Source: a phage. Taken from it: 64,000 bases of DNA. The notes below the pieces were generated by a model. The model ran no database searches and was not told where the DNA came from. It saw only the letters and a list, made by a program, of their open reading frames with translations. The stretch lies in the sequence record PQ478073.1. One strand, 5' to 3'. Positions 1,283 to 63,648 of the stretch are shown here, piece after piece. Positions within the stretch are counted from its first letter, which is position 1; every line of letters starts with the position of its first letter. A program made the translations under genes and the position numbers.

Positions 1283-1723
1283 ATGGAAGATATTAATGAT
1301 TTACGACACGTAATGGACTTTATCGGTAGTACTGAAGAAGATAATTCGTATGATGAAGTACTATTAACTTTTATTGAAAATAGTTTGTTTTTAAGTTCTG
1401 CTGCACATAACTGGCACTTACAATGTCATTTTTATACAAAGCATTTACAATTAGATGAACTATATAAAGAATTACCAGAATATGTAGACGCATTTGTTGA
1501 AGGTATCATGAATAATCGTGGTGCTTTACAAGTTGGAACTGGTAATAGTTATCGTTTTACACCAATTGAAGATTGTGTACCAATTCTTGAAGAATATGTT
1601 GAGCAATGTAGAGCAATTCATGATATGCTTGAAGAATCAGGTGATTACGGCAGTGTAAACACATTAGAAGATATTATGAGTTTTGTTGAAGGAACACTTT
1701 ACAAACTTAAAGTTTTACAATAA
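1283..1723 (+). CDS. Dps-like ferritin-fold protein (146 aa)
   Basis: SD aaggagag upstream of ATG; segment AAHNWHLQCHFYTKHLQLDELYKELPEYVDAFVEG reproduces the Dps ferroxidase-site spacing H-x11-H-x14-D-x3-E. Confidence 0.6.
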   Translation: MEDINDLRHVMDFIGSTEEDNSYDEVLLTFIENSLFLSSAAHNWHLQCHFYTKHLQLDELYKELPEYVDAFVEGIMNNRGALQVGTGNSYRFTPIEDCVPILEEYVEQCRAIHDMLEESGDYGSVNTLEDIMSFVEGTLYKLKVLQ

Positions 1724-6656: not shown

Positions 6657-7067
6657 ATGATTGAAATGGAAGGAACTCTGGTGTATGATCCAGATCGTGG
6701 CACTATGAAAAAGAAGAAGGACTTCTGGTTAGTACTACAACTTCCATTACAGTTGGTTCGATACTACCAGTACTTCATCAGAACTGACTTACATATTGAT
6801 ATTAAAGACCCACAATGGGGAGCACATGTCAGTATCGTTCGTGGTGAAGTGCCACCAAATCCAGAGTACTGGAAAAAGTACGATGGAATGAAAGTAAAGA
6901 TAAAGTTCAATCCTTGTATTGAGATAGTAAAAGATAAAAAGAATCCAGGTTCATTCTTTATCATTGAATTTGAAGATGATTTCATCACACATATTAGAAA
7001 TGAACTAGGACTACCAACCAAGTACTTTAAATATCACATCACTGTAGGTAGAACTTACTACGATTAA
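6657..7067 (+). CDS. 2H phosphoesterase superfamily protein (136 aa)
   Basis: Two H-x-[TS]-x motifs with hydrophobic fourth residue (AHVSIV and YHITVG) about 70 residues apart, the hallmark of the LigT/2H fold. Confidence 0.55.
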   Translation: MIEMEGTLVYDPDRGTMKKKKDFWLVLQLPLQLVRYYQYFIRTDLHIDIKDPQWGAHVSIVRGEVPPNPEYWKKYDGMKVKIKFNPCIEIVKDKKNPGSFFIIEFEDDFITHIRNELGLPTKYFKYHITVGRTYYD

Positions 7068-8178: not shown

Positions 8179-8511
8179 ATGCTAAATCTAAATATTCAAG
8201 GCAACGTTGATATCACTCCAGCAATCCAAGATGCTATTTACAATGAAGCAAAAAGTCTGGATAAGTACCGTACTTCTTCAGTACTAGACATTGGTGTTCA
8301 TGTTAAGAAAGAGCATAAAACTCAATATGCTGTAACTTTAACTGCTGGTAGTAAATCAGTAACTGCTGATGATGCTGATTTGTATAAAGCAATTGTTGAA
8401 TCTTTTGATAAGATGGAAACTGTATTCAGTAAAGACAAAAGCATTAAATTACACCGCAGAAACCATCCAGAACACCCAGTTCTTGATGATTTGACAGAAA
8501 ACGAAGAGTAA
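8179..8511 (+). CDS. hypothetical protein (110 aa)
   Basis: ORF track; aaggaaggtg SD. Confidence 0.5.
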   Translation: MLNLNIQGNVDITPAIQDAIYNEAKSLDKYRTSSVLDIGVHVKKEHKTQYAVTLTAGSKSVTADDADLYKAIVESFDKMETVFSKDKSIKLHRRNHPEHPVLDDLTENEE

Positions 8512-35660: not shown

Positions 35661-38600
35661 TTAAGCTGTACGTTGTGCAATAAACATATCTACAACTGGA
35701 CTTACACCATCATAAATGACTTGGTAAATGGTCACAGAGTTTGCAGTTTTGTTTAGAGTGCCATCAACAACCGCATAAGTACCATCAGTAGTAAAGTTTC
35801 TGTTACCAGTTGCATCTTGTTTCACATAAATGTATACTGAAGATGCTTTACCACCACCGATTAGACCAGTGATTGGTGCTAGAGTTGTATCTTGATCAAG
35901 GGTGATAAAGTATACGTTGCTAGTACCATCAGGAGTCCAAGTACCAGTTGGTGCAATAACAGAAGAAGTTACTTGATTAGGAATAACATCATATTTTTTA
36001 GTAGTTACAGTAGTAGTAGTTAAATCAGCATTAGTTGTTGTTAGTTGACCAGTAACTGTTACATTTTTGTCAAACACAGCATTTTCTTTGAAAGAAGATG
36101 TTGCATTAACAGTTAATGTATCAGCAGCAGCGTCACCTAGAACAACACTACCATTTGCAGTCATTAAACCAGTAACAGTTAAAGTACCACCTACGGTTGC
36201 TGCACCAGTTACAGATGCACTAGCAAGAGTAGCAGCACCAGAAGTAGTAATTGTAGTTACAGAAGTAGCAGCAAGGGTAGCAGTACCAGTTGCAGAAATA
36301 TCACCACCGACAGTTAGGTTACCAGAAGTAATACCAACAGTTCCTGTGATATTCGCACCACTTGACATAGTAACTGCACCACCGAATGAACCAGTAGTAG
36401 TTACTTCAAGAGTGTTACCTTTTAGTAAACCAGTTGCAGTAATGCTTGTTCCTGCGGTAATACTAGTACCAGCAGCAACACTGTTAGTTGCAGTTAAAGA
36501 TTTAACAGCCACATCAGAGTTAGCTTGGTTTAGCGTTGCGTTTAGAACACCAGTTACTGTAAAGTTACCATTGTTAACTACGTTACCATTGATGGTTAAG
36601 TTGTTGTTTTGTGAACCAACATCACCAATAGTTGCAGATTTAGAAATCAATTCTGCACCAGATGTGATATTACCTGCTGCACTAATAGTATCAGCAGCAA
36701 CAACAGCATATGGTTCGATAGTTTGACCACTAACATCGATATCAGCGTTGATACCACCGTCTACACGCAAGGAACCTGCGATGTAAGTGTTAGGGAAAAT
36801 CTGAACTGTTTCTGGTTGATCACCAATTTTTGTACCAATTACAACGTTCGCACCAGTTTTAACTGCACCAGATGTTGTTAGTGAACCTAAAGTTGCTTCA
36901 CCAACTACACCTAATGTACCACCTACGGTTGCGTTATTAGTAACTGCCAAAGCTGTTCCTTCACCGTTAAGGGTGATAGATGGAGCAGTCGCTGCACCAG
37001 TTACGCCTAATGTACCACCTACGGTTGCGTTGCCATCAGAATGTAGTGTAGTAGCTACAGAAAGACTGTTTGCAACTACATCAGTACTTGCAAGATCCAA
37101 TGCACCTGGTGTTAATGTACCAGTAATGTTAACATTATTACCAAAGGTTGCTGCACCAGTAACATCTAGAGTTGTACTAAATGTACCAGAAGTTGCAGAA
37201 ACAGCACCAGAATCTAGTGAACCTACAGTTGCTTTTCCAGTTACACCTAGTGTACCACCTACAGTTGCGTCGGTTGTTACACCTAATGTACCAGTACTAA
37301 CTTCTTGAGCGGTTGCTTTACCAGATGCAGTAATAGTTGAAGTAGATACTCCCCCAGTTAATGTGCTTGCACCAGTTACTGCTAAAGTTGTTGCTGCTGT
37401 TACGCTGTTCACGTTAAGGTCAGCACCAGCTAGGTTCAAACCACCTTCAGGAATAAATTCACCCTTCACTGTTAGTTTTTGTACTGTACTATCACCAGTG
37501 ACTGCCAGTGTAGATGCAGTTAAACCACCATTCATACTAGCTGCACCAGTTACACCGAGTGTAGTGGTTACAACAGCACTATTAAGAGTAGCAGTGTCGG
37601 AAATATTAGCACTTGGTGCAGCAATAGTCCCAGCATCAACTTGAATACCACCAGTAACAACTTGGATACCACCAGCATTAACAGTGAGTTTACCAGCAGT
37701 GTTTAAGGTATTTGATACAGTTGTAGCACCAGATAGTGTACTTGTACCAGTAACACTTAGATTACCAGAAATTATTGGGCTACCAGTTACATTACCAGTT
37801 GTTAGAATTAAATCAGTACCTACAGTTGTAGAACCAGTACTTTCTAATGTTACACCAACAATGTTAGAAGAACTTAGGTTAATTGAACCTGTTACAGTCA
37901 AGTCACCATTAACAGTTGCGTTACCTAGTGAATTTAATGATTTCACTGAAACATCAGTAGTGCTAAGGTCAATTACACCCGCAGTTAATGTACCAGATAC
38001 AGCCAAATCACCAGTGATTGCAGTGTTTTTAGTAATAGAAACACTTTCAGCAGCAGAAGTTAGAGAACCAACAGTCAAAGCACCGCCAACAGTGGCGTTA
38101 TTAGTAACGTTAAGTGCAGTACCAACACCAGATAGTGTTGCAGACGCACCATTAACAGCACCAGAGATATTTGCATTTGCAGCAGATACATCACCTGAAA
38201 CAACCGCAGTTGTTGCATTTACTGTAGTTGCAGTAATATCAGTACTTTGTACTTTTGGTAGTAGGTTAACACCTTCAGCACTACTAACAGTGATGATTCC
38301 AGCACTTGTTAGAGATTTTACTGATACATCAGCAGCAGATAGGTCTACAGTACCAGAAACAACAAGGTCACCACCAATATTTGCACCAGCAGTTGTTGTG
38401 ATTGATTTAGCATTAACATCAGTTGTTGTTAAATCAATAGCACCTGGTGTTACTGTACCAGAAACTGTTAGGTCACCAGTAATAGATGTATTATTAGCAA
38501 TAGATACACCCGCAGTATTACCAATGGTTGGAACTTCAATAGAAACTGCTGTAACTTTACCAGAAGATGTTACATCAGCAACAGAAGTTGCACCAGTTAC

Positions 38601-41186
38601 ATTCAAATTAGTAATATTCGCAGTAGTAGAACCTAGAGTTGCAATTGTCGCATCAGTACTTTGTAGTTTAGGTAGAACACTACTAATAGTTGATTCATTA
38701 CTAACGATTGCACCAGTACTGGTTAGAGATTTAACTGTTACATCAGCAGCAGTTAGGTCTACTGTACCGTTAACGGTTAAGTTTCCACCAATTGTTGCAC
38801 CAGCAGTTGTTGTGATTGATTTAGCGTTAACATCAGTTGATGCTAGGTCGATAGATCCAGGAATCACAGCACCACTAACAGTTAAGTCACCAGTGATAGA
38901 AGTATTATTACCAATTGTAACACCAGTTACATTGGAAATAGATGGAGTAACTAGAGATGCAGTTGTTGTTTCACCACTTACATTTAAAGTTGTTCCGACT
39001 ACAACATCAGCACTTGTACGAACAGATGCTAGATTAGATGGACCTGTTACCGCAAGTTCAGTTGCATTAACAGTATTAATTGTTGCAGTAGTACTATTAA
39101 GTACTGGTAAAACGTTGGCATTAACCAAATCATTACTTTTAACAATACCAGAAGTTGTTACAGATTTAACGTTAAGATCAGCGGCTGATAAATCAAATGA
39201 CCCTTGAACAACTAAATCACCACCAATTGTTGCACCAGCAGTTGTTGTAATAGAGTTTGCATTAATATCAGTAGTGCTTAGATCTAAAGAACCTACAGTC
39301 AAACTACCAGTAATATCAACGTTTTCAGTAAAGTTAGTATTTCCAGTAATAGTTGGAGCAGAAAGACTTGTAGCACTAATAGTTGTACCATTAATAGTTC
39401 CACCACTTAGTGTACCACTTGCAGTAATAGTTGGAGCACTTACTTCAGTGGAAGCAGTAATAGATGGTGCAGATACAGATGTTGTACCAGTAATAACACC
39501 AGCATTAATAGAACCAGCAGATAATGCACCAGATAGATTTGCAGTAGTACCTGCAATATCACCAGTAACGGTTAGTTTAGCACCTACGGTAGTATTTCCA
39601 GTACTTTCAAGAGTTGCACCTTTCACGTTTGCAGCAGCTACAACAGAGTTAGGAGTTAAGTTTTGACCACTAACATCAACAGTTAGGCCAGTAACAGTAC
39701 CAGTGAAATCAACATCATTAAGAATAGTTTTACCACCAACTTGTAGGAATGGTGTACCTGGGGCTTGTGTTTCATTACCAGTGATAGTTAGGTAATCTAG
39801 TTTGTTAAGACCGTTACCAGTAATACCATAGGTAGATAGTGAAGCATTACCAAAAGTTGCGGTTTTTAGAACATTCAATGTTGCAGGTGAAACAACTTCT
39901 GATTGAACTTCGTTAGGTAAAATAACAGTTGGGCGTTGGCCTGGTGCTGTATATCCAAATCCTAATTTAACTGCTGCATCTTGACTGTTTTGACCCAAGC
40001 TAATGGATTTGAAAGAAGCAGTACTATTAAAGCCAGTGATATTTGAACCTAAAGTTACTGCACCAGTTAGTGAAGATGTACCAGTAACATTCAATGAAAC
40101 TGCATTAATATCGTCAAGTTGGAATGTACCACCAAGTAGACCAGAAACGTTAATGTTATTAAAGTTTGCGGTTCCTGTACTTTCAATATTAGGAATAGTT
40201 GCTGTGCCAGTAACTTCAAAGTCAGCAACTTTGGTTTTACCCTTTTGAACTTCCAATAGTGGGGTGTCTGGGGATTGAGTATTGTTACCAGATACAGTTA
40301 GGTAATCTAGTTTGTTAAGACCATTACCTGTAATACCATAAGAAGAAAGAGAAGCGTTACCAAATGTTGCAGATGTCAAAACTGTTAAATTTGCAGGTGA
40401 CATTAATTCAGATTGAATTTCGTTTTGAAGAACTACAGTAGGACGTTTACCTGGAGCACTGTAAGGGAAGCTTAGTCTGAAGGTTTGAGATTCAGAGTTA
40501 GAACCAATACGAATATCTTTGAATGTAGCAGTACTGTTAATACCAGTTACGTTTGCACCAAAAGTTACTGCACCTTGTTGGTTAGATGCACCAGAAACGT
40601 TCAATGTTACTGCATTCAAATCTGATAGATTAAATTGTCCACCAAGTGTACCACTAATAGTTACATCGTTAAATGTAGCAGTACCAGTACTACTAATATT
40701 GGTTGTACTTACATTAGTAATTTCTGCGGTATTAGCAGTAATTTTATCAAATGCAGCAGTAGTACCAACATCAGCAGTAATATTACCTTTAAATGCTGTT
40801 GTTTCAGCAACTTCTAAGTTTTTAACTTTAGTTGCTTGTAGAGTGGTTGTACCAGCAGTTTGTGTAAAATCAGAACCAACTGATACAGTACCGTTAAAGG
40901 TAGCGTTTGAATTAATTGTTGCTGTATCAGACCCGACAACTGCACTACCGATTGTAGTATTACCCTCAACACCAAGACCACCAGAAAGTGTTGCTTTGCC
41001 ACCAACATCTAAAGTAGATGTAATGTTGGCAGTTGATGATTCAATGGCAGTAAAAGTTGCATTTGCAAAAGTTACAGTACCATTTACAGTTAGGTTATTA
41101 TTGAAAACAGCATTTCCTTTGACTAAAAGATCCTTACCAACCGTACCAGCACCAGTAATATCTAAGTCAGTTTTTATTGAGTACAT
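35661..41186 (-). CDS. giant repetitive tail fibre-like protein (1841 aa)
   Basis: ORF track; Thr/Gly/Ser/Ala/Val-rich with tandem repeats of about 170 and about 150 aa; SD ggaggg. Confidence 0.65.
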   Translation of the reverse strand: MYSIKTDLDITGAGTVGKDLLVKGNAVFNNNLTVNGTVTFANATFTAIESSTANITSTLDVGGKATLSGGLGVEGNTTIGSAVVGSDTATINSNATFNGTVSVGSDFTQTAGTTTLQATKVKNLEVAETTAFKGNITADVGTTAAFDKITANTAEITNVSTTNISSTGTATFNDVTISGTLGGQFNLSDLNAVTLNVSGASNQQGAVTFGANVTGINSTATFKDIRIGSNSESQTFRLSFPYSAPGKRPTVVLQNEIQSELMSPANLTVLTSATFGNASLSSYGITGNGLNKLDYLTVSGNNTQSPDTPLLEVQKGKTKVADFEVTGTATIPNIESTGTANFNNINVSGLLGGTFQLDDINAVSLNVTGTSSLTGAVTLGSNITGFNSTASFKSISLGQNSQDAAVKLGFGYTAPGQRPTVILPNEVQSEVVSPATLNVLKTATFGNASLSTYGITGNGLNKLDYLTITGNETQAPGTPFLQVGGKTILNDVDFTGTVTGLTVDVSGQNLTPNSVVAAANVKGATLESTGNTTVGAKLTVTGDIAGTTANLSGALSAGSINAGVITGTTSVSAPSITASTEVSAPTITASGTLSGGTINGTTISATSLSAPTITGNTNFTENVDITGSLTVGSLDLSTTDINANSITTTAGATIGGDLVVQGSFDLSAADLNVKSVTTSGIVKSNDLVNANVLPVLNSTTATINTVNATELAVTGPSNLASVRTSADVVVGTTLNVSGETTTASLVTPSISNVTGVTIGNNTSITGDLTVSGAVIPGSIDLASTDVNAKSITTTAGATIGGNLTVNGTVDLTAADVTVKSLTSTGAIVSNESTISSVLPKLQSTDATIATLGSTTANITNLNVTGATSVADVTSSGKVTAVSIEVPTIGNTAGVSIANNTSITGDLTVSGTVTPGAIDLTTTDVNAKSITTTAGANIGGDLVVSGTVDLSAADVSVKSLTSAGIITVSSAEGVNLLPKVQSTDITATTVNATTAVVSGDVSAANANISGAVNGASATLSGVGTALNVTNNATVGGALTVGSLTSAAESVSITKNTAITGDLAVSGTLTAGVIDLSTTDVSVKSLNSLGNATVNGDLTVTGSINLSSSNIVGVTLESTGSTTVGTDLILTTGNVTGSPIISGNLSVTGTSTLSGATTVSNTLNTAGKLTVNAGGIQVVTGGIQVDAGTIAAPSANISDTATLNSAVVTTTLGVTGAASMNGGLTASTLAVTGDSTVQKLTVKGEFIPEGGLNLAGADLNVNSVTAATTLAVTGASTLTGGVSTSTITASGKATAQEVSTGTLGVTTDATVGGTLGVTGKATVGSLDSGAVSATSGTFSTTLDVTGAATFGNNVNITGTLTPGALDLASTDVVANSLSVATTLHSDGNATVGGTLGVTGAATAPSITLNGEGTALAVTNNATVGGTLGVVGEATLGSLTTSGAVKTGANVVIGTKIGDQPETVQIFPNTYIAGSLRVDGGINADIDVSGQTIEPYAVVAADTISAAGNITSGAELISKSATIGDVGSQNNNLTINGNVVNNGNFTVTGVLNATLNQANSDVAVKSLTATNSVAAGTSITAGTSITATGLLKGNTLEVTTTGSFGGAVTMSSGANITGTVGITSGNLTVGGDISATGTATLAATSVTTITTSGAATLASASVTGAATVGGTLTVTGLMTANGSVVLGDAAADTLTVNATSSFKENAVFDKNVTVTGQLTTTNADLTTTTVTTKKYDVIPNQVTSSVIAPTGTWTPDGTSNVYFITLDQDTTLAPITGLIGGGKASSVYIYVKQDATGNRNFTTDGTYAVVDGTLNKTANSVTIYQVIYDGVSPVVDMFIAQRTA
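37850..39340 (-). repeat. intragenic tandem repeats, 3-4 units of about 0.42-0.45 kb
   Basis: Protein repeat IDL[AST]TTDVNAKSITTTAGA[TN]IGG[DN]L.V.GTVDL[ST]AADV.VKSLTS.G recurs; matching DNA strings near 38401 and 38815. Confidence 0.6.
39700..40700 (-). repeat. intragenic tandem duplication, 2 units of about 512 nt
   Basis: gttaggtaatctagtttgttaagacc at 39785 and 40297; encodes two 170-aa repeats (TATFNDVTISG... and TANFNNINVSG...). Confidence 0.65.
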
Positions 41187-53628: not shown

Positions 53629-56600
53629 TTATTTAACTAATAATATATTTTTAATATCATTACCACTAACTTGTAGACTATCAGTGTATACTGAAAGATC
53701 TATAGTGTAACTATTTTGTGTGTAACGTTTTAACATATCATAATTACCTAAATTAATTCCATTGAATGAATATGTAGTATTAAGTTTAAAATCATGTTCT
53801 GCACTATACATTACTCCACGGAGTAAATTATTTGCATTTCTAACTTCAACTTTTTCATATCCAATCGATATAATATCATTTATGTTCGCGGCAGAACCGG
53901 ATAAAACATTATTTCTAATACTATAAGGACTTATTGATTTAGGTTGAGAAACATAGGTTGTATTTTCTTCACTAATGGTTGTGATGTTAGTAACCGTACC
54001 ACCAACAACACCGATGTACATACCGTCAACCATTGGATAACCATAAACCCATATACCTTCATTATTTCTAAACGGTTGAATAACACTTGAATCATATTCA
54101 ATAACGTTGATTTCTAAACTATCAGTCATTTTAGTTCTTGCTAATTCACTAAGAACTCCCGCACCAGTAATTGGTAGGTTATAACCGTTGTCGATAGTAA
54201 TTCCATCAACATCAAATATTTCGTTAGAGATTATCCAAACGTCAACGTCATCTGGTGTTATTCCGTCATTGTACTTACCACCATTTAAAGTAGTATCGTA
54301 GAAAACATCATAATTAATTACATCAATTGTGTAATTTCTATTTTGTTCGTACAATTTGATACCATTCTTCACAAATTCTGGGTCAGCAAATGTTCTAACA
54401 CGAACAATGTTCAATGCAAGAGGCTGTACTGGCTCATTTTGTTGTGCAAGAGTGATATTATCATAACGGAGAACTGCACCAGTACTCTCATCAATCAATT
54501 CAATCGTTTCTTTACCTGTATTTCTTACAGTGAATAGGATCGGAGTTGTATTGTTTTTGATGTTAGATACACGCAAGATTGTTTCCCATGTGTGATTTTG
54601 ATATCTCACAAAATCTTCACCATCAGGAGTGAAAATCATCACCTTATCACCATCAGATAGGTCATTGTCAACTATTTCTGCTTCAGTTAAGCTATTAATA
54701 GATCTCACACGATAGAAATATTTTTCATCAAACTTCGATGTTGTTTTATTAATATCATTTTCAATCTTAGCATATGAAGGAATACTAACAATTGCTTCTG
54801 TATGTTTATATGGATTGATAATTGCCATACCTTCAGTTTGATATCTGCTGTTATCACGTAATTGTACAAGAGATACATTGTCAAACCCATATCCATCAAC
54901 TGTAAATCTAATTTGACCAACATCACGCCCAGAAGGGTTTATGTCAGATATATCCACAATATAAGGATCAACTTCATCATCTTTAACTTCCCATTTTATT
55001 GAAGAAGTTTGAGATTCTAATGCTAGGTTATCAAATGCATTCATATCATTGAAGTACTTAGCTTCAGTAATACTATCAAGTATATATTGATAATCTGAAT
55101 ACATTGGGTTATTTTGATCTAGTGGTAAATCATCTAGATTTATTTCAGCTAGTTCAATCATTTCACCATTTGTGATAAAATAATCTTCCATGAAATCATC
55201 AATACTTTGTTCATCAGGTATACTTTGATATACACCGTTAACATTTAAGTAAACATATTTTCGTGGAATCATTGTAATTGCATAGATATCAATTGGGGTT
55301 TTACTAAGAATCTCTTCAGCTTTTTCGTACTTATCAGTAGCGTCTTTGTCGAATAACCCTCTCATACCTGCTAATACGTGAATAGCATCAGTATAGAAAC
55401 GGGTATCACCACCGACTTCATCATAACGATAAACATATACACCATACTCAACTTCAAGTTTAACTTTTACTTCATAGTCTGATGCGTCAGGATTTTTATC
55501 TTTAATTAATGAAATATATTTTTGATACAGTTCACTGCTTATTTCAAAATATCCATAGTTATAATCATTACTAGAAGAAAAGCCTAATGGAAGTCTAGTA
55601 CTAGGATTGTCATTATAAGTAAGTCCACTAAATCCACAACCAACTTCATCGTGAATTTTCTCATCACTTATATCTTTATAAAGTTTCAAACGGTTTGCCA
55701 ATGTGTTATACTGAACATATTGTCTAAGGTCAGTAAACATATCGTTCTGCGTTGATTCTTTATAAACACGCTCCAATGTAGCAGTAAATTCATCAGTTGC
55801 TTCTAAATCTTCCGCATGGTCTTTATACCACTGGTTAACACCATATGCTGTTCCTAATGTTACATCCAATTCTGGATAGTAGATTTGCATTTGATAAGCA
55901 ATAAGAAGATCGAAAGTTTCTTCACTATATTCTGGGAAAGAATATATATAACGTTGTAATTCATAGTTACTAACAGCATCCTTTTCATTGGATTGATATT
56001 TGTTATTAACACTTACTAATTCATTTATGCTTGCTAAATCTGCATTTGGTTTACATTGAATGTTATCGTAATGCATAATAATATCAATTTCTTGGAATCT
56101 TCTATTTGGTGTAATGAAATCACTTGGTAGTGAACCTACCTGTTCCCATTTTTGGGTAATTTCATTAAATTGAGCGTACTCATAATCCCAAATATCTTTT
56201 TCAGTTTTGACCCAAGAACCGTCAACGAAAATATATCCATTAGGATCTAAATCATTACACAGACCTTTTATTAAATCATCATCAGATGTCTTTTGCTCTA
56301 TTTGTGAACGAATTTTAGTTCTATAAGGTTTAACTTCTTCAAAATATTCAACAATTTGATTAATCAAATTATCGTTTGAATAGTTTTGAACTAATGATTG
56401 TTCCAAACCAACAATATAGATATATGATGTTTTAAATACCCAATCCACAACACTTTGTTCAACATGTACATATTTGACCATATCAAAAACAATTTCGCTT
56501 TGATGTAAATCGAAAGAATTTTTGAGTAAAGCTAGTGCTTTACGAACGTTGATTTCACGATTGCTTAGTGAACCATTATCATTATGAACACTATAATCTG

Positions 56601-59600
56601 CGTAAAGCATATCATTGAGTTCAACTGTACTGTTTTCACGACCAATCGCTTTCCAATAAATTGAATCGCGTGATTGTGATTTAATATACAATGTCCAAAT
56701 GTTTTCACTATCGGTAACTCTGATAATATCTCCAACTTGGTAGTTTTTAGTATTAGCATCTTCTAAGCTTGACTCTTGTGTATAAGTCGTGTTACTATCA
56801 TACCCAACATCATACCAATCAGCATATGACCAGTACTGAGTCATGTCCAATGAAGTTCCTAGTGATTCAACATAATCAGATTGTTTAATCATTTTATGTT
56901 GTCCCTCACCTTTGTTCTCTAACGTTATAGTAACAACACTACCCGCGTTTGCTGGACTATTCATTAACTGAATATATCCATTTTCGTCGAAGTGAATAAA
57001 ATAAACAGCACTAGAAGTTAATGGATTTGGTAGATATCCACTAGTACTTAAAATAACAGCGTCATTTTCTTTAAATTTATCACTTTCAACTGCAATAACT
57101 AATTCATTATTGTAAGACAATACACGGAAAGAAACTTCATTCGGGTTAACTTCAGTGGTTTTAACATTAAACACATCTTCCATAACAACACTATTAGTGG
57201 TTATGTTTTGTGACCTATAATAATTATTAGCACTTTCTACAAAGTTTCTACGAGCTTCTATAACATTTTGGAACCAAGTTTTGTTTGAACCTAAACCGTT
57301 ATCAACATCTGGATATAATAAATTAATCACAGAACCTGATTCAGTTGTTTCTTGACCAATTAGTGAGTTCCACATTGAATCCCAAATTAGTGGGTTAAAG
57401 TTATAGCTGTCACCTTCTTTACATAGTTGATACTGGTCATGTTTAACAACTTCAGTACTATCCATGTAATAAGAAACAGTTAAAATACTGGTATCATCAT
57501 TCACTTTAAATTGCATATTACTAAGAATAAACGAGTTTTCATTGATTGGAGCGAACCAAGGAATGTTTAGCTGTGTTGGATCTTTAATAATACGAGCAAT
57601 GTCAGTACATGATTTTGTTCTGGTATGTAGTGGTGGTACATAAATTGTATCACGTACCCAGAAATAGTATTTTGTCACATAACTATCAGTTGAACTATCA
57701 TATTCCAAAAATGTACTATAATTATCTTCAAGTGCAGTTCCACTTGGTAGATACATAGTATTATTTTTGTTTTTCTTAGCAACATCTTTACAGTATTTGT
57801 CCCAGTTATATGGCTCAACTGGTGAACAAACCCACTCTAACACATCAATTGTACTATGTGGTAATAAACGACCCCAGTTGTAACGTTTGTATTCATTGGT
57901 TGCATCAATGTCAACATTACCGTCTGCGTCATAAATTGCACGAGTATAATCCAAATAAAATGCAGTGCTAGTGTTCCACCATACTTGACCAACTTTATCA
58001 GCACCCCAAGCCTGGATTAACTCTCCATTACTATTATACTGTGCAGGATCAACTGGTGAAGTATATGTTACGTTTTGCATAGCCGCACCTGGAATAACAC
58101 CATTAATTGGGTCATAAACGTTTAGATATAGCTCAGTAATGTTAGTACGTTCATCATATGTCGTTGGACGATCAAATAAAGTACTTTGTGGTGCTTTAAA
58201 ACTATATTTCTTGTCAATGTAAGCTTGACGTTCATCAGTACTGGCAAAACGTGATACATAACGATACAAACGTGGACGTGTATCTGGATCAGTAAATTCA
58301 ATATCAATAGAAGTGTCAAATGGAACTACCATAACTTTAGGATCAGAACCAGCAGTATAATATTGACTTTCTACTGTTAAAGTATCTGGCATAAAGTTAG
58401 TTTCATCAACAAAATAATAATAATCACCATCTTCAAGTGGTACATTATCAGTTAAAGTTACTTTACAAAATTGTTCAGCATACACATCGGTATTTTCAAT
58501 AGGTGTTATAGAAACCATTTGAACATTAGTATCAACCAATTCAAAAATGTTCCACAAACCATTACCGTCTTTAAACATCCACACAGATTCAGGATTTTCA
58601 CCTTTACCATTAGTATAAGTTATGCGGTCATTATATGCAGTACTGAAATCTTTTGTTGTGTACGATACTTCATCCAATGTTACTGGACCAATATCTGGAA
58701 GTTGGATATTTTCACTTCTTCCACTACGCATTGGGAATGAGAACTTACCATTTGGACGTGTAATCCAACGAGGATCTTTACCCTGCTCACCGAAGTATAC
58801 AATATGATTACCATTACCATTTGAAGTTGCATTTACATCAAAAGAAACCATTTGAGGTTGTTGTTTAAATTGGTCATTGATTAGTTTAAATTGAAGGTTT
58901 TTCTTACCATCAATATTACCATATGTACCAATTTTAAATGCCCATTCTTGTAATGCTTTATATTCATCAGTGTCATATGATTTAGAAACACGAAGGACAC
59001 GTTCTAAAACTTGGTTAGTACCTTTATCGTGAATGAATCCTTTATAGAAATCAACACGACTAACATCACTACTAATCATACGCTGTAGATAATCACGAGA
59101 TTGATAACCAATCAAATGGTTTGACAACTCTTGTAATTGTACATCACTTACTGGAGTTTCACTATCATAATAATGTTGGAAATCCGACACTAATTTTTCA
59201 AATGATGGTAGTGTTCCAGCTTCCAAGATAATAAATCCAGGAGCTTGTAGGCGACCAGTCCATGAACCAGTAATATATCCATACATTTTAATTAGTTCTT
59301 GAATAGAACCATATGTTGGCTGATAAATGTAATCACCAAAAATAGTTTTATCATCAAAAATAACAGCATGTTCATATGAACACAAACTTAAACGAATCAA
59401 TGCAATGCGTTTATTAGATTCTAAAGTTCTAACAGTGAAGATATTTCCAATACGAGAAGTTTCAATTTCATATTGGCGAATACCTTGGTTATTATCATCA
59501 AGTAATGACCATACACCACCATTATTTTGCGTAATAGATTGTACTGAACCAAAGTCTGCCCCAAATTTAGCGTTTGCAGCACTTGGGGTACAAGAAATAA

Positions 59601-62600
59601 ATTCACCAGTTACTAGAGAATTCTGACTCCAGATCACGAAATCTTTAGCAATAGTGTTCCAATCTTGTTGAGCACCACTATCATTTACATCTTCAAAAAT
59701 CCAACCATGTTCTTTAAGATATTCACCATATCCACAAATAAAAGTATAAACTTCTTGGTAACTATTGAAAACTTTACCATATTCAATTGAAGCTTCAGAC
59801 TTCCATTCATTATAATGAACAACATTACGGTTTTCCAATTTAAGAGTTACTTTTCTACCATTTTTTACGGGAAGTTTATATTTAAATTTAGCACCAACTA
59901 GATCATATCCATCAATCTGATATGCACTACCATTCCAAGTAATTTTGATCGCACTCATTTGCTCATCACGGATATTATTAGAACGAACAAGACCAATGGT
60001 TTGGTTTTCTTGTGAAATAAGACCGAAAGATTTAGCATTGAATGTTAGCTGATCTGCTTTAGTAAATCCTCCAATTTTATGACCAACATTTATATAAGAA
60101 GAACGAACTACATCCCCATACTTGGTGGTAATATTTTTATTTTGATACATCAAATGGTCACTTACAAACATTTGATAACCAATTGTTCTTGTGCTATTTT
60201 CACCATGAACTACTGTATTTTTATCAAAATTAATACGCTTACGTGTATCACCATAAAGGAATTGTGAACCATCAGTGAATACTTCTTTTAAGTTATCATT
60301 GCGGGTATCCCAGAAATAGTTAGCAAATTGTGCTGGTTTAGCTTTATACAAAAGCATCATTTGGTCATATGCAAACAATGTAGTGTTCATGTATGTAAAT
60401 TCCATGTCACCCATATCACCATATGTCCAAGGTTCTGCTCTATGATTTAAAGATCCAGACACTAAACCTAAAATTTCAGGTGCAATATATTCAACCACAC
60501 AAATATCAATACCAGAAGATGTTTTATTTCCAGTTTTTGTAATTTTGAATGGCTGTACACCAAATCTTTTATATTTGTCATATTGACCACGACGATCACC
60601 AAATAAAATAGTTCCAGTACTGCTATCGCCAATACTTCCGTCAATATCCCAAAGACCACTAGGAACTAAATCACCTTGCTCATTCATAACAAGTGCTTCA
60701 TATACATATACAACATCACTATCACGTTCACCAACTTGAACAGCCGTTGGTTCGTATTCTTGGTTCCACCAAGTTGGACGTTGTGTAAAGCCAAACATTT
60801 CCCACGGATGGGTAGCTGGGCGATATGTACCATATTGGTCAGTGTAAATGGCACGCCATGAACCACGTGCAGGAATTTCAGTACTTTGACCATTAACTAC
60901 ATAATAAGTGCCAGTATAGTTCCAAGTTCTCCAATTGTTAGGATCATAATCATGTGTACTATTACTGATACCATTAGTTGCGGTGAAGTTAATGTATCCA
61001 CGTAGTAATAATGTTTGTTTCTCTTCAGCACTATATTCAGTTTTAGTGAAATATGGTGTAGGGAAAAGGTCATCACTATTCAATACTGGTACGTAATCAA
61101 CATCTTTGAATTTATTATCAATACTATTAAAAATTCTATTTTCTAATTCATATACAACATCATCCATTTTATCAACACCATTGATAACACGGTATGCTTT
61201 GGAAATAATACCAGTATGACTGATGTTATAACAGCTTGGTTTACTACCAGCAGTGAGGAATGTCGCTTTTTCTGGTACATATGCTTGAAGAATACCTAAG
61301 AACTGTGGTGTTGGTGGTATAAATGCACGAATGAATCCAGAAGTACTTCCAACATTATCATAATAGAATGGGAATGAACTATCACGTCCCATATTAATAG
61401 TAGTTAAAATTGCATCAACAATGTTTGCAGCACTATTTTGTAAAAAGTCTGATGGATTTTCATCATACATACGAAGCATTTGTGTATTAAATTTATTAAT
61501 GAATCTAAAATATTCAGATTGCATAAACATAGTTGCTTCAAATAAATCAATATCTTCATTTGCAGTATGTGCCATCAATGGAAGCATAGATGCTTCATTT
61601 TGGATAATTTTAGTACCTACGCCATTATTAACCAATCCTTTAGCCAAACGTTCTTCATAGTCATTGAAATCATCAGAAGAACCACGTGTAATGTTCTTTT
61701 GAATAATATCCTGAAAATGTAAAGTGTAGTCACCTTGGTTAATGTATATAATATTAGAATTATATGGGTTATTTTGTAGGTTGATTGGAACTTCATAAGC
61801 ACCTAATTCTTTATCAGGTGTTACAGTACTGCTATAAGTTCTGATTTGAATAACAGAATCTTCATCCAATTCTACAGTACTATCTAGAGTGATGCTTTGT
61901 ACTTGACCTTTTGAAACATTTTTGGTATATTTGGACACATCAACACCATCAACCACAACTTCAATAATATCAGAATCATTATCTAAAACTTTTTGTGCCA
62001 ATTCGAATGTATGGTCATATTTTACAATCTGAACACCATCACCAGTAATTGGATGCCAATCTAGATAAGTTTCTCGGTCAGCTTTATAGTACTGATATGT
62101 TCTATCAACTTCAATAACATATGCATACATACCATCAACTGGTTCTTTAAAAACTTCCATATCATAAACAGTACTGAATACACGATACATATCAGTACGT
62201 TTGACTTGTGGAGTTTGTTTTACAAATTGTTTAGAGTACTCTTCTGAACGAACCCAATCGGTTTGAAGATTCATTTCATTATTTTCATCAATAATGTTAT
62301 AATAGTATAAACCATCAATTTCAACTTCTTTTCCAAGATGGTCATAGGTATAACGTTGGGATTGTAAAAAGTTTTCATAAATGTAATAATTATAATCACC
62401 AAGTTCAATGTTATATCCATATACACTATCAGTTGCATAGTTGTAATTTATTTTAAAACCAAACAACTCTGAACCTTTAAAGTTACTTGATGGATATGTA
62501 GTACTGTTGTCAAGTTTGATACCATTACGATCATAAAGTTGGAATTTAGGGAATACGTTAACACTAGTTTTTGATTGTGCACGAACCCACAAAGAACCAT

Positions 62601-63600
62601 TCCAGTACATAGAACTATTACCATACTCATTACCTTTAGTGATTAGAACAACATCACCATCTTGAGGTTCACCACTTGGGCGTGATTCGGTTTCTTCTTC
62701 TGGATCTAGTGCTAAACCATAAACACGAGTACCATCTTGCATTTTTTTCACATATACATTATAAATTCTATTGTTTTCACCATTGTTACCAATACTGGTG
62801 AATAGAATACGCATTCCATCTTGCGGAATAATACCATCAATACGTATACCACTATTAATATCTTTTTGAACGATATCTTCAGGTTTAATAATATCAGAGA
62901 ACAGATCAACAGTTCCACGGAATTTTGTACCGTAGTTAATTAGCTCAATATTTTTATTATATTCAATAATTGGTGCACGTGCACGAATAAAACGTGAATC
63001 TTGCATTAATTCTTCAGTTAATATTGAGCCATCTTCTAATGTTTCACCTAAAGTATACCAAAAGTTTTGTAGTGACCATGTATTACCATTAAGTGCTCCG
63101 CGTTCCATTACAATGTAATCAGGTGAAGTAATATTATAAGAGTTTTTAGTATCCCAAAGATATGAGCTAAAATTGTTCATTTTATTTGGGTTAATAGCTG
63201 GAGTCCATGCATAAAACTTACCGTTGAACAAACGGCTTTCATTATCGGTTAGTGCTCCATAATGATTCATGTATCCAACTAGATCATCATAAAATTGAAT
63301 TGAACGAATTGTCGAATCATCATTTTTTGAGACGTAAGCAGTGGACAACTGATAAAGTTGACGTGCTACAGTACTTTCATGTAAGAAGATATTACCAGCA
63401 GCGGCAGGAGAACCCATATCACCAATATAGCCGTCAACTAATTCGTTTTCAGCCGGATTAAACCATTGTTGAATAACATCATCACTGACTTTTTGAATAT
63501 CTTCTAAGCCTTGCATCCACTCAGGCAATCTTTTAATAAAAAGCTTCTTCTGTACTGCTTCAGCCATCTGTGTAGGTTGAAACTTAAAATTATTAGTCAT
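53629..63600 (-). CDS. giant protein of unknown function (about 3323 aa; 3333 aa if first ATG 63630 is used)
   Basis: Single uninterrupted ORF of about 10 kb; GGAG SD 7 nt upstream of ATG 63600, none upstream of 63630; Y/N/D-rich, no transmembrane or catalytic motif recognised by eye. Confidence 0.7.
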   Translation of the reverse strand: MTNNFKFQPTQMAEAVQKKLFIKRLPEWMQGLEDIQKVSDDVIQQWFNPAENELVDGYIGDMGSPAAAGNIFLHESTVARQLYQLSTAYVSKNDDSTIRSIQFYDDLVGYMNHYGALTDNESRLFNGKFYAWTPAINPNKMNNFSSYLWDTKNSYNITSPDYIVMERGALNGNTWSLQNFWYTLGETLEDGSILTEELMQDSRFIRARAPIIEYNKNIELINYGTKFRGTVDLFSDIIKPEDIVQKDINSGIRIDGIIPQDGMRILFTSIGNNGENNRIYNVYVKKMQDGTRVYGLALDPEEETESRPSGEPQDGDVVLITKGNEYGNSSMYWNGSLWVRAQSKTSVNVFPKFQLYDRNGIKLDNSTTYPSSNFKGSELFGFKINYNYATDSVYGYNIELGDYNYYIYENFLQSQRYTYDHLGKEVEIDGLYYYNIIDENNEMNLQTDWVRSEEYSKQFVKQTPQVKRTDMYRVFSTVYDMEVFKEPVDGMYAYVIEVDRTYQYYKADRETYLDWHPITGDGVQIVKYDHTFELAQKVLDNDSDIIEVVVDGVDVSKYTKNVSKGQVQSITLDSTVELDEDSVIQIRTYSSTVTPDKELGAYEVPINLQNNPYNSNIIYINQGDYTLHFQDIIQKNITRGSSDDFNDYEERLAKGLVNNGVGTKIIQNEASMLPLMAHTANEDIDLFEATMFMQSEYFRFINKFNTQMLRMYDENPSDFLQNSAANIVDAILTTINMGRDSSFPFYYDNVGSTSGFIRAFIPPTPQFLGILQAYVPEKATFLTAGSKPSCYNISHTGIISKAYRVINGVDKMDDVVYELENRIFNSIDNKFKDVDYVPVLNSDDLFPTPYFTKTEYSAEEKQTLLLRGYINFTATNGISNSTHDYDPNNWRTWNYTGTYYVVNGQSTEIPARGSWRAIYTDQYGTYRPATHPWEMFGFTQRPTWWNQEYEPTAVQVGERDSDVVYVYEALVMNEQGDLVPSGLWDIDGSIGDSSTGTILFGDRRGQYDKYKRFGVQPFKITKTGNKTSSGIDICVVEYIAPEILGLVSGSLNHRAEPWTYGDMGDMEFTYMNTTLFAYDQMMLLYKAKPAQFANYFWDTRNDNLKEVFTDGSQFLYGDTRKRINFDKNTVVHGENSTRTIGYQMFVSDHLMYQNKNITTKYGDVVRSSYINVGHKIGGFTKADQLTFNAKSFGLISQENQTIGLVRSNNIRDEQMSAIKITWNGSAYQIDGYDLVGAKFKYKLPVKNGRKVTLKLENRNVVHYNEWKSEASIEYGKVFNSYQEVYTFICGYGEYLKEHGWIFEDVNDSGAQQDWNTIAKDFVIWSQNSLVTGEFISCTPSAANAKFGADFGSVQSITQNNGGVWSLLDDNNQGIRQYEIETSRIGNIFTVRTLESNKRIALIRLSLCSYEHAVIFDDKTIFGDYIYQPTYGSIQELIKMYGYITGSWTGRLQAPGFIILEAGTLPSFEKLVSDFQHYYDSETPVSDVQLQELSNHLIGYQSRDYLQRMISSDVSRVDFYKGFIHDKGTNQVLERVLRVSKSYDTDEYKALQEWAFKIGTYGNIDGKKNLQFKLINDQFKQQPQMVSFDVNATSNGNGNHIVYFGEQGKDPRWITRPNGKFSFPMRSGRSENIQLPDIGPVTLDEVSYTTKDFSTAYNDRITYTNGKGENPESVWMFKDGNGLWNIFELVDTNVQMVSITPIENTDVYAEQFCKVTLTDNVPLEDGDYYYFVDETNFMPDTLTVESQYYTAGSDPKVMVVPFDTSIDIEFTDPDTRPRLYRYVSRFASTDERQAYIDKKYSFKAPQSTLFDRPTTYDERTNITELYLNVYDPINGVIPGAAMQNVTYTSPVDPAQYNSNGELIQAWGADKVGQVWWNTSTAFYLDYTRAIYDADGNVDIDATNEYKRYNWGRLLPHSTIDVLEWVCSPVEPYNWDKYCKDVAKKNKNNTMYLPSGTALEDNYSTFLEYDSSTDSYVTKYYFWVRDTIYVPPLHTRTKSCTDIARIIKDPTQLNIPWFAPINENSFILSNMQFKVNDDTSILTVSYYMDSTEVVKHDQYQLCKEGDSYNFNPLIWDSMWNSLIGQETTESGSVINLLYPDVDNGLGSNKTWFQNVIEARRNFVESANNYYRSQNITTNSVVMEDVFNVKTTEVNPNEVSFRVLSYNNELVIAVESDKFKENDAVILSTSGYLPNPLTSSAVYFIHFDENGYIQLMNSPANAGSVVTITLENKGEGQHKMIKQSDYVESLGTSLDMTQYWSYADWYDVGYDSNTTYTQESSLEDANTKNYQVGDIIRVTDSENIWTLYIKSQSRDSIYWKAIGRENSTVELNDMLYADYSVHNDNGSLSNREINVRKALALLKNSFDLHQSEIVFDMVKYVHVEQSVVDWVFKTSYIYIVGLEQSLVQNYSNDNLINQIVEYFEEVKPYRTKIRSQIEQKTSDDDLIKGLCNDLDPNGYIFVDGSWVKTEKDIWDYEYAQFNEITQKWEQVGSLPSDFITPNRRFQEIDIIMHYDNIQCKPNADLASINELVSVNNKYQSNEKDAVSNYELQRYIYSFPEYSEETFDLLIAYQMQIYYPELDVTLGTAYGVNQWYKDHAEDLEATDEFTATLERVYKESTQNDMFTDLRQYVQYNTLANRLKLYKDISDEKIHDEVGCGFSGLTYNDNPSTRLPLGFSSSNDYNYGYFEISSELYQKYISLIKDKNPDASDYEVKVKLEVEYGVYVYRYDEVGGDTRFYTDAIHVLAGMRGLFDKDATDKYEKAEEILSKTPIDIYAITMIPRKYVYLNVNGVYQSIPDEQSIDDFMEDYFITNGEMIELAEINLDDLPLDQNNPMYSDYQYILDSITEAKYFNDMNAFDNLALESQTSSIKWEVKDDEVDPYIVDISDINPSGRDVGQIRFTVDGYGFDNVSLVQLRDNSRYQTEGMAIINPYKHTEAIVSIPSYAKIENDINKTTSKFDEKYFYRVRSINSLTEAEIVDNDLSDGDKVMIFTPDGEDFVRYQNHTWETILRVSNIKNNTTPILFTVRNTGKETIELIDESTGAVLRYDNITLAQQNEPVQPLALNIVRVRTFADPEFVKNGIKLYEQNRNYTIDVINYDVFYDTTLNGGKYNDGITPDDVDVWIISNEIFDVDGITIDNGYNLPITGAGVLSELARTKMTDSLEINVIEYDSSVIQPFRNNEGIWVYGYPMVDGMYIGVVGGTVTNITTISEENTTYVSQPKSISPYSIRNNVLSGSAANINDIISIGYEKVEVRNANNLLRGVMYSAEHDFKLNTTYSFNGINLGNYDMLKRYTQNSYTIDLSVYTDSLQVSGNDIKNILLVK

Positions 63601-63648
63601 TTTTGGACTCCATATAATTCGTTCATTCATTTGATTTATTTATGATAT

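What the first reader, a model, noticed from the sequence alone, without database searches (positions are those of the whole stretch)
6657..7067. Small 2H phosphoesterase: candidate cyclic-nucleotide or 2',5'-signal degrading enzyme
The 136-aa protein carries two H-x-[ST]-hydrophobic motifs (HVSI, HITV) about 70 residues apart, the defining feature of the 2H phosphoesterase fold. In phages, small stand-alone enzymes of this fold include enzymes that destroy host immune cyclic nucleotide signals (anti-CBASS type), so this gene is a plausible anti-defence factor rather than an RNA repair enzyme.
Basis: partly seen in the sequence, partly recalled or inferred. Interest (0 to 1): 0.6.

Follow-up and report, generated by a model that had tools for sequence, protein, structure and literature searches.

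The report
Jumbo-phage 2H phosphoesterase for tRNA repair
This small gene of a giant E. coli phage does encode a two-histidine (2H) phosphoesterase, but its family and its neighbours in related phages point to repair of cut tRNA ends, not to destruction of bacterial cyclic-nucleotide alarm signals, and such phage enzymes have already been predicted.

Summary

The anti-CBASS interpretation is not supported:
- The protein belongs to Pfam 2H-SAK (the "Swiss Army Knife" RNA-repair 2H domain), not to the Acb1 family.
- It lacks Acb1's C-terminal lid.

Context in relatives points to tRNA:
- In most Rak2-like jumbo phages the order is RNA ligase, Ro60-like protein, 2H, HPF, CCA-adding enzyme, Nudix, YqeY, Macro.
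- In Ralstonia phage RsoM2USA a TROVE gene sits directly upstream.
- One homologue is fused to a YqeY domain.
- In at least three distant lineages the gene sits inside tRNA gene arrays.

The window's phage (121Q/UB-like Asteriusvirus) keeps HPF, an HD-less CCA enzyme, Nudix and Macro nearby. Its close relative 121Q encodes Rnl1, PNKP, RlaP and PTH2 elsewhere.

Most likely function: an RNA 2',3'-cyclic phosphodiesterase for tRNA end healing. This has been predicted in the literature but never tested.

The parts
6657..7067 (+). Gene for a 136-aa stand-alone 2H phosphoesterase of the 2H-SAK family (the homologue of 121Q gene 531)
6825..6836 (+). First catalytic motif, H57-V-S59-I, followed by invariant R62-G63
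   Evidence: H57 is invariant in 81 diverse homologues. S59 is at least 90% conserved and R62/G63 are invariant in close homologues. The motif lies on strand 57-62 of the model.
7035..7046 (+). Second catalytic motif, H127-I-T129-V, followed by invariant G131-R132; the protein ends 9 residues after H127
   Evidence: H127 is invariant and T129 at least 90% conserved in 81 homologues. The motif lies on strand 126-132 of the model.
8179..8511 (+). HPF/RaiA-type ribosome hibernation factor, 1.1 kb downstream on the same strand (context)
   Evidence: Pfam Ribosomal_S30AE 3.3e-10. It holds this position relative to the 2H gene in most of the Rak2-like loci.
10111..11223 (+). CCA-adding tRNA nucleotidyltransferase without an HD phosphohydrolase domain, 3.0 kb downstream (context; possible functional partner)
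   Evidence: Pfam PolyA_pol 3.1e-18 and PolyA_pol_RNAbd 4.3e-8, with no HD hit. The C-terminal ~200 residues contain no histidine. It is conserved downstream of the 2H gene in Rak2-like phages and in Vibrio phage 2.275.O.
11332..11733 (+). Nudix hydrolase, 4.3 kb downstream (context)
   Evidence: Pfam NUDIX 1.1e-12. Position conserved.
12564..13040 (+). Macro-domain (ADP-ribose-1''-phosphate processing type) protein, 5.5 kb downstream (context)
   Evidence: Pfam Macro E=0.009, below threshold. RefSeq names the 121Q orthologue a macro domain protein. It is homologous to the Macro proteins near the 2H gene in CBB, Atu_ph07 and phage G.

Best explanation
The gene encodes a minimal, metal-independent two-histidine phosphoesterase. 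Its most likely job is to open 2',3'-cyclic phosphate ends on RNA, above all on tRNAs (host and phage-encoded) cut by host metal-independent nucleases. Other phage enzymes can then finish the repair: a phosphatase/kinase and RNA ligase for anticodon-loop breaks, or the CCA-adding enzyme for damaged 3' ends. Shown here: the 2H fold, the conserved catalytic H-x-S/T pair, membership of the 2H-SAK lineage, and the RNA/tRNA-centred genomic context of relatives. Inferred: the substrate (RNA>p), the product (probably a 2'-phosphate, as for LigT and Trl1-type 2H enzymes; established knowledge, not tested here), and the partners. One specific inference concerns the phage CCA-adding enzyme. It lacks the HD domain, which in E. 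coli Cca supplies 2',3'-cyclic phosphodiesterase and phosphatase activity (my own knowledge of the literature). A stand-alone 2H enzyme could supply that healing step.
For: Family: Pfam 2H-SAK is the only 2H family hit for this protein and for all 21 close homologues. UniRef already names the fHe-Yen9-04 orthologue 'Swiss Army Knife 2H phosphoesterase domain' protein. Catalytic residues: H57 and H127 are the only invariant columns in 81 homologues. Fold. Context in relatives: in 15 Rak2-like loci (L012-L026) the order, complete in most, is RNA ligase (PF09414), DUF2828/vWA Ro60-like protein, 2H, HPF, CCA enzyme, Nudix, YqeY, Macro. The Ro60-like gene ends 84-464 nt upstream of the 2H ORF. In Ralstonia phage RsoM2USA (27% identity) a bona fide TROVE protein is the gene immediately upstream, preceded by a tRNA-Thr. 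P0035 is a 2H-SAK fused to YqeY, a domain related to the tRNA-binding tail of GatB. YqeY genes lie 0.4-1.6 kb downstream in Atu_ph07 and in two metagenomic phages. HAD_SAK_2 lies 3.4 kb downstream in L037, and RlaP (faint Pfam hit) 2 kb upstream in L010. The gene lies inside tRNA gene arrays in at least three lineages that share 56% identity or less; the nearest tRNAs are 18-67 nt away in L007, L027, L029 and L035. Toolkit, read from the close relative 121Q (about 96% nucleotide identity to the window over the 3 kb compared): Rnl1, PNKP, RlaP, PTH2 and 8 tRNAs. HD-less CCA enzyme. Literature: Iyer et al. 2021 (PMC7824862) and 2022 (PMC9503650) predict exactly this role for 2H proteins of jumbo phages.
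Confidence: 0.55

Rival explanations
1. The enzyme is an ADP-ribose 1'',2''-cyclic phosphate (Appr>p) phosphodiesterase in an NAD+-linked pathway. It would open Appr>p, made when a KptA/Tpt1-type or sirtuin enzyme removes a 2'-phosphate from repaired RNA, to ADPr-1''-phosphate. The nearby Macro protein would dephosphorylate that, and the Nudix hydrolase would then cleave it. This can coexist with the RNA-end role, as in yeast and plants.
Against: No KptA is annotated in 121Q. The Macro and Nudix genes are never adjacent to the 2H gene. The closest and most recurrent neighbours are RNA-binding or tRNA features: the TROVE/Ro60-like protein, YqeY and tRNA genes. The window's Macro match is below the Pfam threshold.
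Confidence: 0.15
2. One reading: an anti-defence nuclease that degrades host immune second messengers (CBASS cyclic di-/trinucleotides, type III CRISPR cyclic oligoadenylates, 2'-5'-linked or ADPr-derived signals), working like Acb1 or the viral ns2/VP3 2'-5' phosphodiesterases.
Against: There is no PF23474 Acb1 hit, whereas T4 Acb1 scores 2.7e-60. hhalign against T4 Acb1 gives probability 1%. There is no C-terminal lid or E141 equivalent, because the chain ends 9 residues after H127 (PMC9117128). Foldseek ranks Usb1 and LigT first and does not list Acb1. The context is RNA/tRNA repair. BFVD lists a separate protein named Acb1 in Yersinia phage fHe-Yen9-04, which also has the 2H-SAK orthologue; this rests on the label only and was not verified.
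Confidence: 0.12
3. An RNA-processing 2H enzyme of another type: a Usb1-like 3'-to-5' exoribonuclease that trims tRNA or small-RNA 3' ends and leaves a cyclic phosphate, or a LigT-like reversible 2'-5' ligase. It would act in the maturation of the phage's own tRNA transcripts rather than in repair.
Against: All structural scores are weak and do not separate the subfamilies. The ligase, TROVE, HAD_SAK and RlaP contexts are typical of repair rather than maturation.
Confidence: 0.08

Closest known systems
Pfam PF22547 2H-SAK (2H phosphoesterase domain of 'Swiss Army Knife' RNA-repair proteins; Burroughs & Aravind 2016, as cited in PMC7824862)
   Same: It is the only 2H family detected by sequence. 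All 21 close homologues match it, and the 96%-identical P0001 carries a precomputed hit. Both H-x-S/T motifs are shared, with the second motif close to the C-terminus. Relatives show RNA-repair contexts (HAD_SAK_2, RNA ligase, RlaP)..
   Different: This protein scores 25.6 bits, just under the 27-bit cut-off, and only its C-terminal third aligns to the model. Here it is a stand-alone 136-aa protein with no adjacent ligase, kinase or HAD gene in this phage.
Acb1 (anti-CBASS 2H nuclease, T4 gene 57B; Pfam PF23474; PDB 7t27)
   Different: There is no sequence relationship beyond the motifs. There is no C-terminal lid or E141: Acb1 has 39 residues after its second histidine, this protein has 9. 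The genomic context differs. Acb1 homologues found by tblastn are T4-like phages of about 160-250 kb, whereas this family occurs in jumbo phages of roughly 310 kb and above, apart from one 86-kb record.
LigT/ThpR and the Trl1/plant cyclic phosphodiesterase domains (RNA 2',3'-cyclic phosphodiesterases)
   Different: No Pfam LigT-type hit. The protein is shorter and ends right after the second motif, with extra N-terminal strands carrying a conserved G6...Y10-D-P-x-R14 segment. That suggests a rearranged, possibly permuted, strand order, which I could not verify without coordinates.
HD domain of E. coli CCA-adding enzyme (2',3'-cyclic phosphodiesterase, 2'-nucleotidase, phosphatase)
   Same: A functional analogy only: healing of blocked tRNA 3' ends before CCA addition. 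The phage CCA enzyme 3 kb downstream lacks this domain.
   Different: An unrelated fold and a metal-dependent mechanism. The partnership is my inference.

Membership tests
2H phosphoesterase superfamily | Two H-x-[ST]-x motifs, conserved among homologues | tested here: met
   HVSI at residues 57-60 and HITV at 127-130. H57 and H127 are the only invariant columns in 81 homologues, and T129 is at least 90% conserved.
2H phosphoesterase superfamily | Duplicated alpha+beta fold with each H-x-S/T on a strand; structural similarity to solved 2H enzymes | tested here: met
2H phosphoesterase superfamily | Metal-independent phosphodiesterase activity dependent on both histidines | not testable with these tools
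   Needs an enzyme assay with H57A and H127A mutants.
Pfam PF22547 2H-SAK | Score at or above the gathering threshold (27 bits) | tested here: inconclusive
   This protein scores 25.6 bits, E 1.6e-5, aligned over residues 89-136 only. All 21 aligned homologues match at E<0.01, best 3.9e-10. Most homologues, including the 96%-identical P0001, carry a precomputed PF22547 hit.
Pfam PF22547 2H-SAK | Occurrence with RNA-repair components (HAD_SAK phosphatase, RNA ligase, kinase, RlaP) | tested here: met
   Met in relatives: an RNA ligase lies two genes upstream in Rak2-like phages, HAD_SAK_2 is near in L037, and RlaP (faint hit) is near in L010. In this phage type the partners are distant: in 121Q, Rnl1, PNKP and RlaP lie about 50, 49 and 12 kb away.
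Acb1 (PF23474) | Sequence match to the Acb1 family | tested here: not met
   No PF23474 hit in a scan listing matches up to E=10, whereas T4 Acb1 scores 2.7e-60. hhalign of the 81-sequence profile against T4 Acb1 gives probability 1%. phmmer and tblastn with T4 Acb1 find nothing in the window or 121Q.
Acb1 (PF23474) | C-terminal lid (residues 145-152, W147) and base-reading E141 after the second catalytic histidine | tested here: not met
   The protein ends at residue 136, 9 residues after H127. The Acb1 features are taken from PMC9117128.
Acb1 (PF23474) | Cleavage of 3'3'-cGAMP and cyclic trinucleotides; protection from CBASS | not testable with these tools
   Needs biochemistry and phage genetics.
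LigT/ThpR-type bacterial 2',3'-cyclic phosphodiesterase | Sequence match to LigT-type Pfam families | tested here: not met
   The Pfam scan listing matches up to E=10 shows only 2H-SAK and a chance PAZ hit. No PDB sequence relatives were found by phmmer or by profile.
LigT/ThpR-type bacterial 2',3'-cyclic phosphodiesterase | Hydrolysis of RNA 2',3'-cyclic phosphate to a 2'-phosphate | not testable with these tools
   Inferred from superfamily and context only.

The most novel reading that the evidence does not exclude
The least ordinary reading that the evidence leaves open has two versions. In the first, this minimal 2H enzyme ends right after the second catalytic motif and has a conserved extra N-terminal segment. 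It would be a dedicated component of a phage Ro60/TROVE-ligase-type tRNA surveillance module and a guardian of phage tRNA arrays, with a substrate or product unlike LigT's. In the second, despite its RNA-repair pedigree, it has been recruited in Asteriusvirus (which lost the adjacent ligase and Ro60-like genes) to degrade a nucleotide immune signal.
Probability: 0.12. Interest if true: 0.6.

Novelty: new member of a known kind. Interest (0 to 1): 0.3.

Why it matters
If the prediction holds, the gene is one more piece of the large toolkit jumbo phages carry to keep translation running when hosts cut tRNAs. That toolkit includes their own tRNAs, a CCA-adding enzyme, RNA ligases, PNKP, RlaP, PTH2 and HPF. 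The family is large: 1077 clusters at 50% identity in metagenomes. It occurs almost only on very large phage genomes and has never been tested biochemically, so one assay would annotate many genes. The recurrent Ro60-like/TROVE-2H adjacency and the placement inside tRNA arrays are concrete, testable leads on how phage Ro-like proteins work. For the original question, it warns that 'small phage 2H protein' does not mean 'Acb1-like anti-CBASS enzyme'.

Tried and rejected
- Sequence searches of the PDB with the protein and with a 21-sequence profile gave only chance hits: circovirus capsid, PrgK.
- NCBIfam has no model for this protein or for T4 Acb1.
- PHROGs gives only an unannotated family, phrog_12204.
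- The afdb50 fold library was unavailable.
With A1 it returned mostly Rak2-like loci.
- Burroughs & Aravind 2016, which defined the SAK proteins, is not held. Text searches for '2H-SAK' and for 'Swiss Army Knife' with RNA-repair terms found nothing. I therefore rely on its citation in PMC7824862 and PMC9503650.
- The promoter and terminator scan around the gene was no better than shuffles.
- Rfam found no RNA in the window.
- I looked for a second 2H or Acb1 gene in the 121Q genome with the family HMM and with T4 Acb1, and found none.
- Three other 121Q ORFs carry the bare two-motif pattern but have no informative Pfam match: one chance hit at E 0.08, otherwise none. I treat them as chance.
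- The label 'Acb1' on a second fHe-Yen9-04 protein in BFVD could not be verified, so it is used only as a hint.
- The relation of the CBB-type DUF2828/DUF7788 protein to TROVE is shown only for the vWA half, at low confidence (hhalign E 0.0046, probability 7.6%).

Full report
**What is there.** Window 6657-7067 (+) is an ATG-initiated ORF of 136 codons in a long array of co-directional small genes. The window comes from an Asteriusvirus-type jumbo coliphage. It is 99% identical to Escherichia phage UB and 96% to phage 121Q over the 3 kb around the gene. The protein is 97-100% identical to 'hypothetical proteins' of those phages.

**Check of the observation.**
- The two motifs are HVSI (H57, nt 6825-6836) and HITV (H127, nt 7035-7046), 70 residues apart, as stated.
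- The bare pattern is not very specific. It occurs in 4 of 269 ORFs of 100-200 aa from 121Q plus the window, though in only 0.045% of shuffles of the protein.
- Conservation settles the matter. In 21 homologues of 42-96% identity, H57, R62, G63, H127, T129, G131 and R132 are invariant.
- In 81 homologues down to 26% identity, the only invariant columns are the two histidines.
- AlphaFold2 with the alignment gives a confident model (pLDDT 90.1, pTM 0.83). Its two halves are beta-beta-alpha-beta(HxS) and beta-beta-beta-alpha-beta(HxT).

**Which 2H enzyme?**
- By sequence, the only 2H family detected is Pfam PF22547 2H-SAK (E 1.6e-5, 25.6 bits against a 27-bit cut-off). This is the 2H domain defined on 'Swiss Army Knife' RNA-repair proteins.
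- All 21 aligned homologues hit it, best 3.9e-10. Most carry a precomputed hit, and UniRef uses that name for the Yersinia phage fHe-Yen9-04 orthologue.
- PHROGs places the protein in an unannotated family.
- Pfam has a separate Acb1 family, PF23474. T4 Acb1 matches it at 2.7e-60; the window protein does not appear in a scan listing hits up to E=10.
- A profile of the 81 sequences aligned to T4 Acb1 gives probability 1%.
- According to Hobbs et al. 2022 (PMC9117128), Acb1 binds cyclic dinucleotides with a C-terminal lid (residues 145-152, W147) and E141. All of these lie downstream of its second catalytic histidine, H113. The window protein stops 9 residues after H127, so it has no such segment.
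- The structural ranking depends on the method. Foldseek against the PDB puts Usb1 and LigT first (E 0.04 and above, TM at most 0.46) and does not list Acb1 in the top 50.
- Foldseek against BFVD gives an 'Acb1' and a 'Swiss Army Knife 2H' protein at similar weak E-values.
- The fold therefore says '2H' and no more.

**Distribution.**
- tblastn finds the gene in 77 phage records. All listed records are 310-595 kb except one 86-kb Klebsiella phage record. They include Rak2-like phages of enterobacteria, Vibrio phage 2.275.O, Bacillus phage G, Agrobacterium phage Atu_ph07, Ralstonia phage RsoM2USA and a 595-kb uncultured phage.
- An exhaustive profile search finds 1077 clusters (50% identity) at E of 1e-3 or better. 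Nearly all are 130-170 aa stand-alone proteins, and many sit on contigs of 100-370 kb.
- T4 Acb1 homologues, by contrast, were found in T4-like phages of about 160-250 kb.

**Genomic context.** This is the most informative evidence.
- In Pectobacterium phage CBB the order is RNA ligase (PF21189 + PF09414), HNH, a 504-aa DUF2828/DUF7788 protein, a small ORF, 2H, one ORF, lysozyme, HPF, three ORFs, CCA-adding enzyme, Nudix, glutaredoxin, YqeY, three ORFs, Macro.
- A local search over all fetched loci shows this order, complete in most, in the 15 non-Asteriusvirus Rak2-like loci. The DUF2828 gene ends 84-464 nt upstream of the 2H ORF.
- The DUF2828/DUF7788 protein has a C-terminal vWA-like half whose MIDAS motif aligns with the vWA of the RsoM2USA protein (hhalign E 0.0046, low probability).
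- In RsoM2USA the gene immediately upstream of the 2H homologue (27% identical) is a true TROVE/Ro60-like protein (Pfam TROVE 7.4e-8; PDB TROVE protein 9l5y 3.4e-20). It is itself preceded by a tRNA-Thr.
- One representative, P0035 (335 aa), is a 2H-SAK fused to YqeY.
- YqeY genes lie 0.4 kb downstream in Atu_ph07 and 1.1-1.6 kb downstream in two metagenomic phages.
- A HAD_SAK_2 phosphatase lies 3.4 kb downstream in L037. An RlaP-like nucleotidyltransferase (faint Pfam hit) lies 2 kb upstream in L010.
- In L007, L027, L029, L031, L035 and L037 the gene lies inside tRNA gene arrays of 6-18 genes. tRNAs sit 18-67 nt from the gene in L007, L027, L029 and L035.
- These loci represent at least three lineages sharing 56% identity or less.
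- Macro genes, homologous to one another, lie 2.7-6 kb away in the window, CBB, phage G and Atu_ph07.

**The window's own phage.**
- Asteriusvirus has lost the ligase, the Ro60-like gene and YqeY from this neighbourhood.
- Downstream on the same strand it keeps HPF (8179-8511), the CCA-adding enzyme (10111-11223), Nudix (11332-11733) and Macro (12564-13040).
- The CCA enzyme has head and RNA-binding domains but no HD domain, and there is not a single histidine in its last ~200 residues.
- The window covers only about 64 kb of the genome, so the rest of the toolkit was read from 121Q. There, Rnl1 (PF09511 + T4_Rnl1_C), PNKP (kinase + HAD_PNKP), an RlaP nucleotidyltransferase, a PTH2 peptidyl-tRNA hydrolase, a Sir2 plus Nudt16-like Nudix pair and eight tRNA genes are encoded.
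- There is only one 2H-SAK gene and no T4-Acb1-like ORF in 121Q plus the window.

**Interpretation.**
- The best-supported mechanism is a metal-independent 2',3'-cyclic phosphodiesterase acting on RNA ends, principally tRNA fragments or 3' ends produced by metal-independent host nucleases.
- It would feed into PNKP/Rnl1-type sealing or into CCA re-addition by an enzyme that cannot heal ends itself.
- Shown: fold, catalytic dyad, family and context.
- Inferred: substrate, product and partners.
- This is the role already proposed for 2H proteins of jumbo phages by Iyer et al. 2021 (PMC7824862) and Iyer et al. 2022 (PMC9503650).
- An additional or alternative role on ADPr-1'',2''-cyclic phosphate, together with Macro and Nudix, is compatible with the looser linkage to those genes.
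- The Acb1-like signal-degrading role is not excluded by chemistry, but it has no specific support and several points against it.
- I put the probabilities at about 0.55 (RNA-end healing), 0.15 (Appr>p), 0.12 (immune-signal degradation) and 0.08 (other RNA processing). The remainder is unknown.

**Novelty and verdict.**
- The gene is a new, sub-threshold but clear member of a described family with a published computational function prediction. No member of this stand-alone clade has been tested.
- The points that go slightly beyond the literature I could read are the Ro60-like/TROVE-2H adjacency in two very distant phages, the YqeY fusion, the embedding in tRNA arrays, and the pairing with an HD-less CCA enzyme.
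- Interest is modest (0.3).

Noticed in passing
window 10111-11223 (+): The phage CCA-adding enzyme (PolyA_pol head plus RNA-binding domain) has no HD domain, and its last ~200 residues contain no histidine. Unlike E. coli Cca, it cannot heal phosphorylated or cyclic tRNA 3' ends itself.
   Followed up: partly
window 8179-8511 (+): A phage-encoded HPF/RaiA ribosome hibernation factor (Pfam Ribosomal_S30AE 3.3e-10). It holds this position, 1.1-2.2 kb downstream of the 2H gene, in most Rak2-like phages examined.
   Followed up: partly
L006 (Ralstonia phage RsoM2USA) 4154-4225, 4442-5908, 6001-6405: A tRNA-Thr gene, a TROVE/Ro60-like vWA protein and the 2H homologue lie in a row on one strand. 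The tRNA next to a Ro60-like gene recalls the tRNA-like Y RNAs that partner bacterial Ro proteins.
   Followed up: no
L002 (Pectobacterium phage CBB) 5228-6742, and the equivalent genes in L012-L026: A conserved 504-510-aa DUF2828 + DUF7788 protein sits between an RNA ligase and the 2H gene. Its C-terminal half has a vWA-like DxSGSM motif that aligns with the vWA of a TROVE protein. A Ro60-like architecture is likely but not proven here.
   Followed up: partly
protein P0035 (335 aa, metagenomic): A natural fusion of a 2H-SAK domain (residues ~4-154) with a YqeY domain (219-334). Separate YqeY genes also lie near the 2H gene in Atu_ph07, L009, L036 and the CBB-like phages.
   Followed up: partly
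L040 31194-31613 (121Q gene 150, outside the window): A 139-aa hypothetical protein with LHRSV and YHVSI motifs 66 residues apart, a spacing like that in T4 Acb1. It has no Pfam match. It is probably chance, but it could be a diverged second 2H protein.
   Followed up: partly
L043 (121Q 200-243 kb): genes 438, 443, 458, 476/477, 506: The close relative 121Q carries a T4-like Rnl1, a PNKP, a PTH2 peptidyl-tRNA hydrolase, a Sir2 plus Nudt16-like Nudix pair and an RlaP nucleotidyltransferase. This is an extensive RNA-repair and ribosome-rescue set scattered over about 40 kb.
   Followed up: partly
window 1283-1723 (+): A DUF5856 protein with a weak ferritin-like match. The 121Q orthologue is annotated as a starvation-inducible DNA-binding (Dps-like) protein.
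   Followed up: no
window 53629-63630 (-) and 35661-41186 (-): Two very long ORFs of 3333 aa and 1841 aa. The first corresponds to the 121Q virion structural protein gene 582.
   Followed up: no
L041 (121Q 117-131 kb, outside the window): A tandem array of about 14 RCC1-like paralogues on the minus strand.
   Followed up: no
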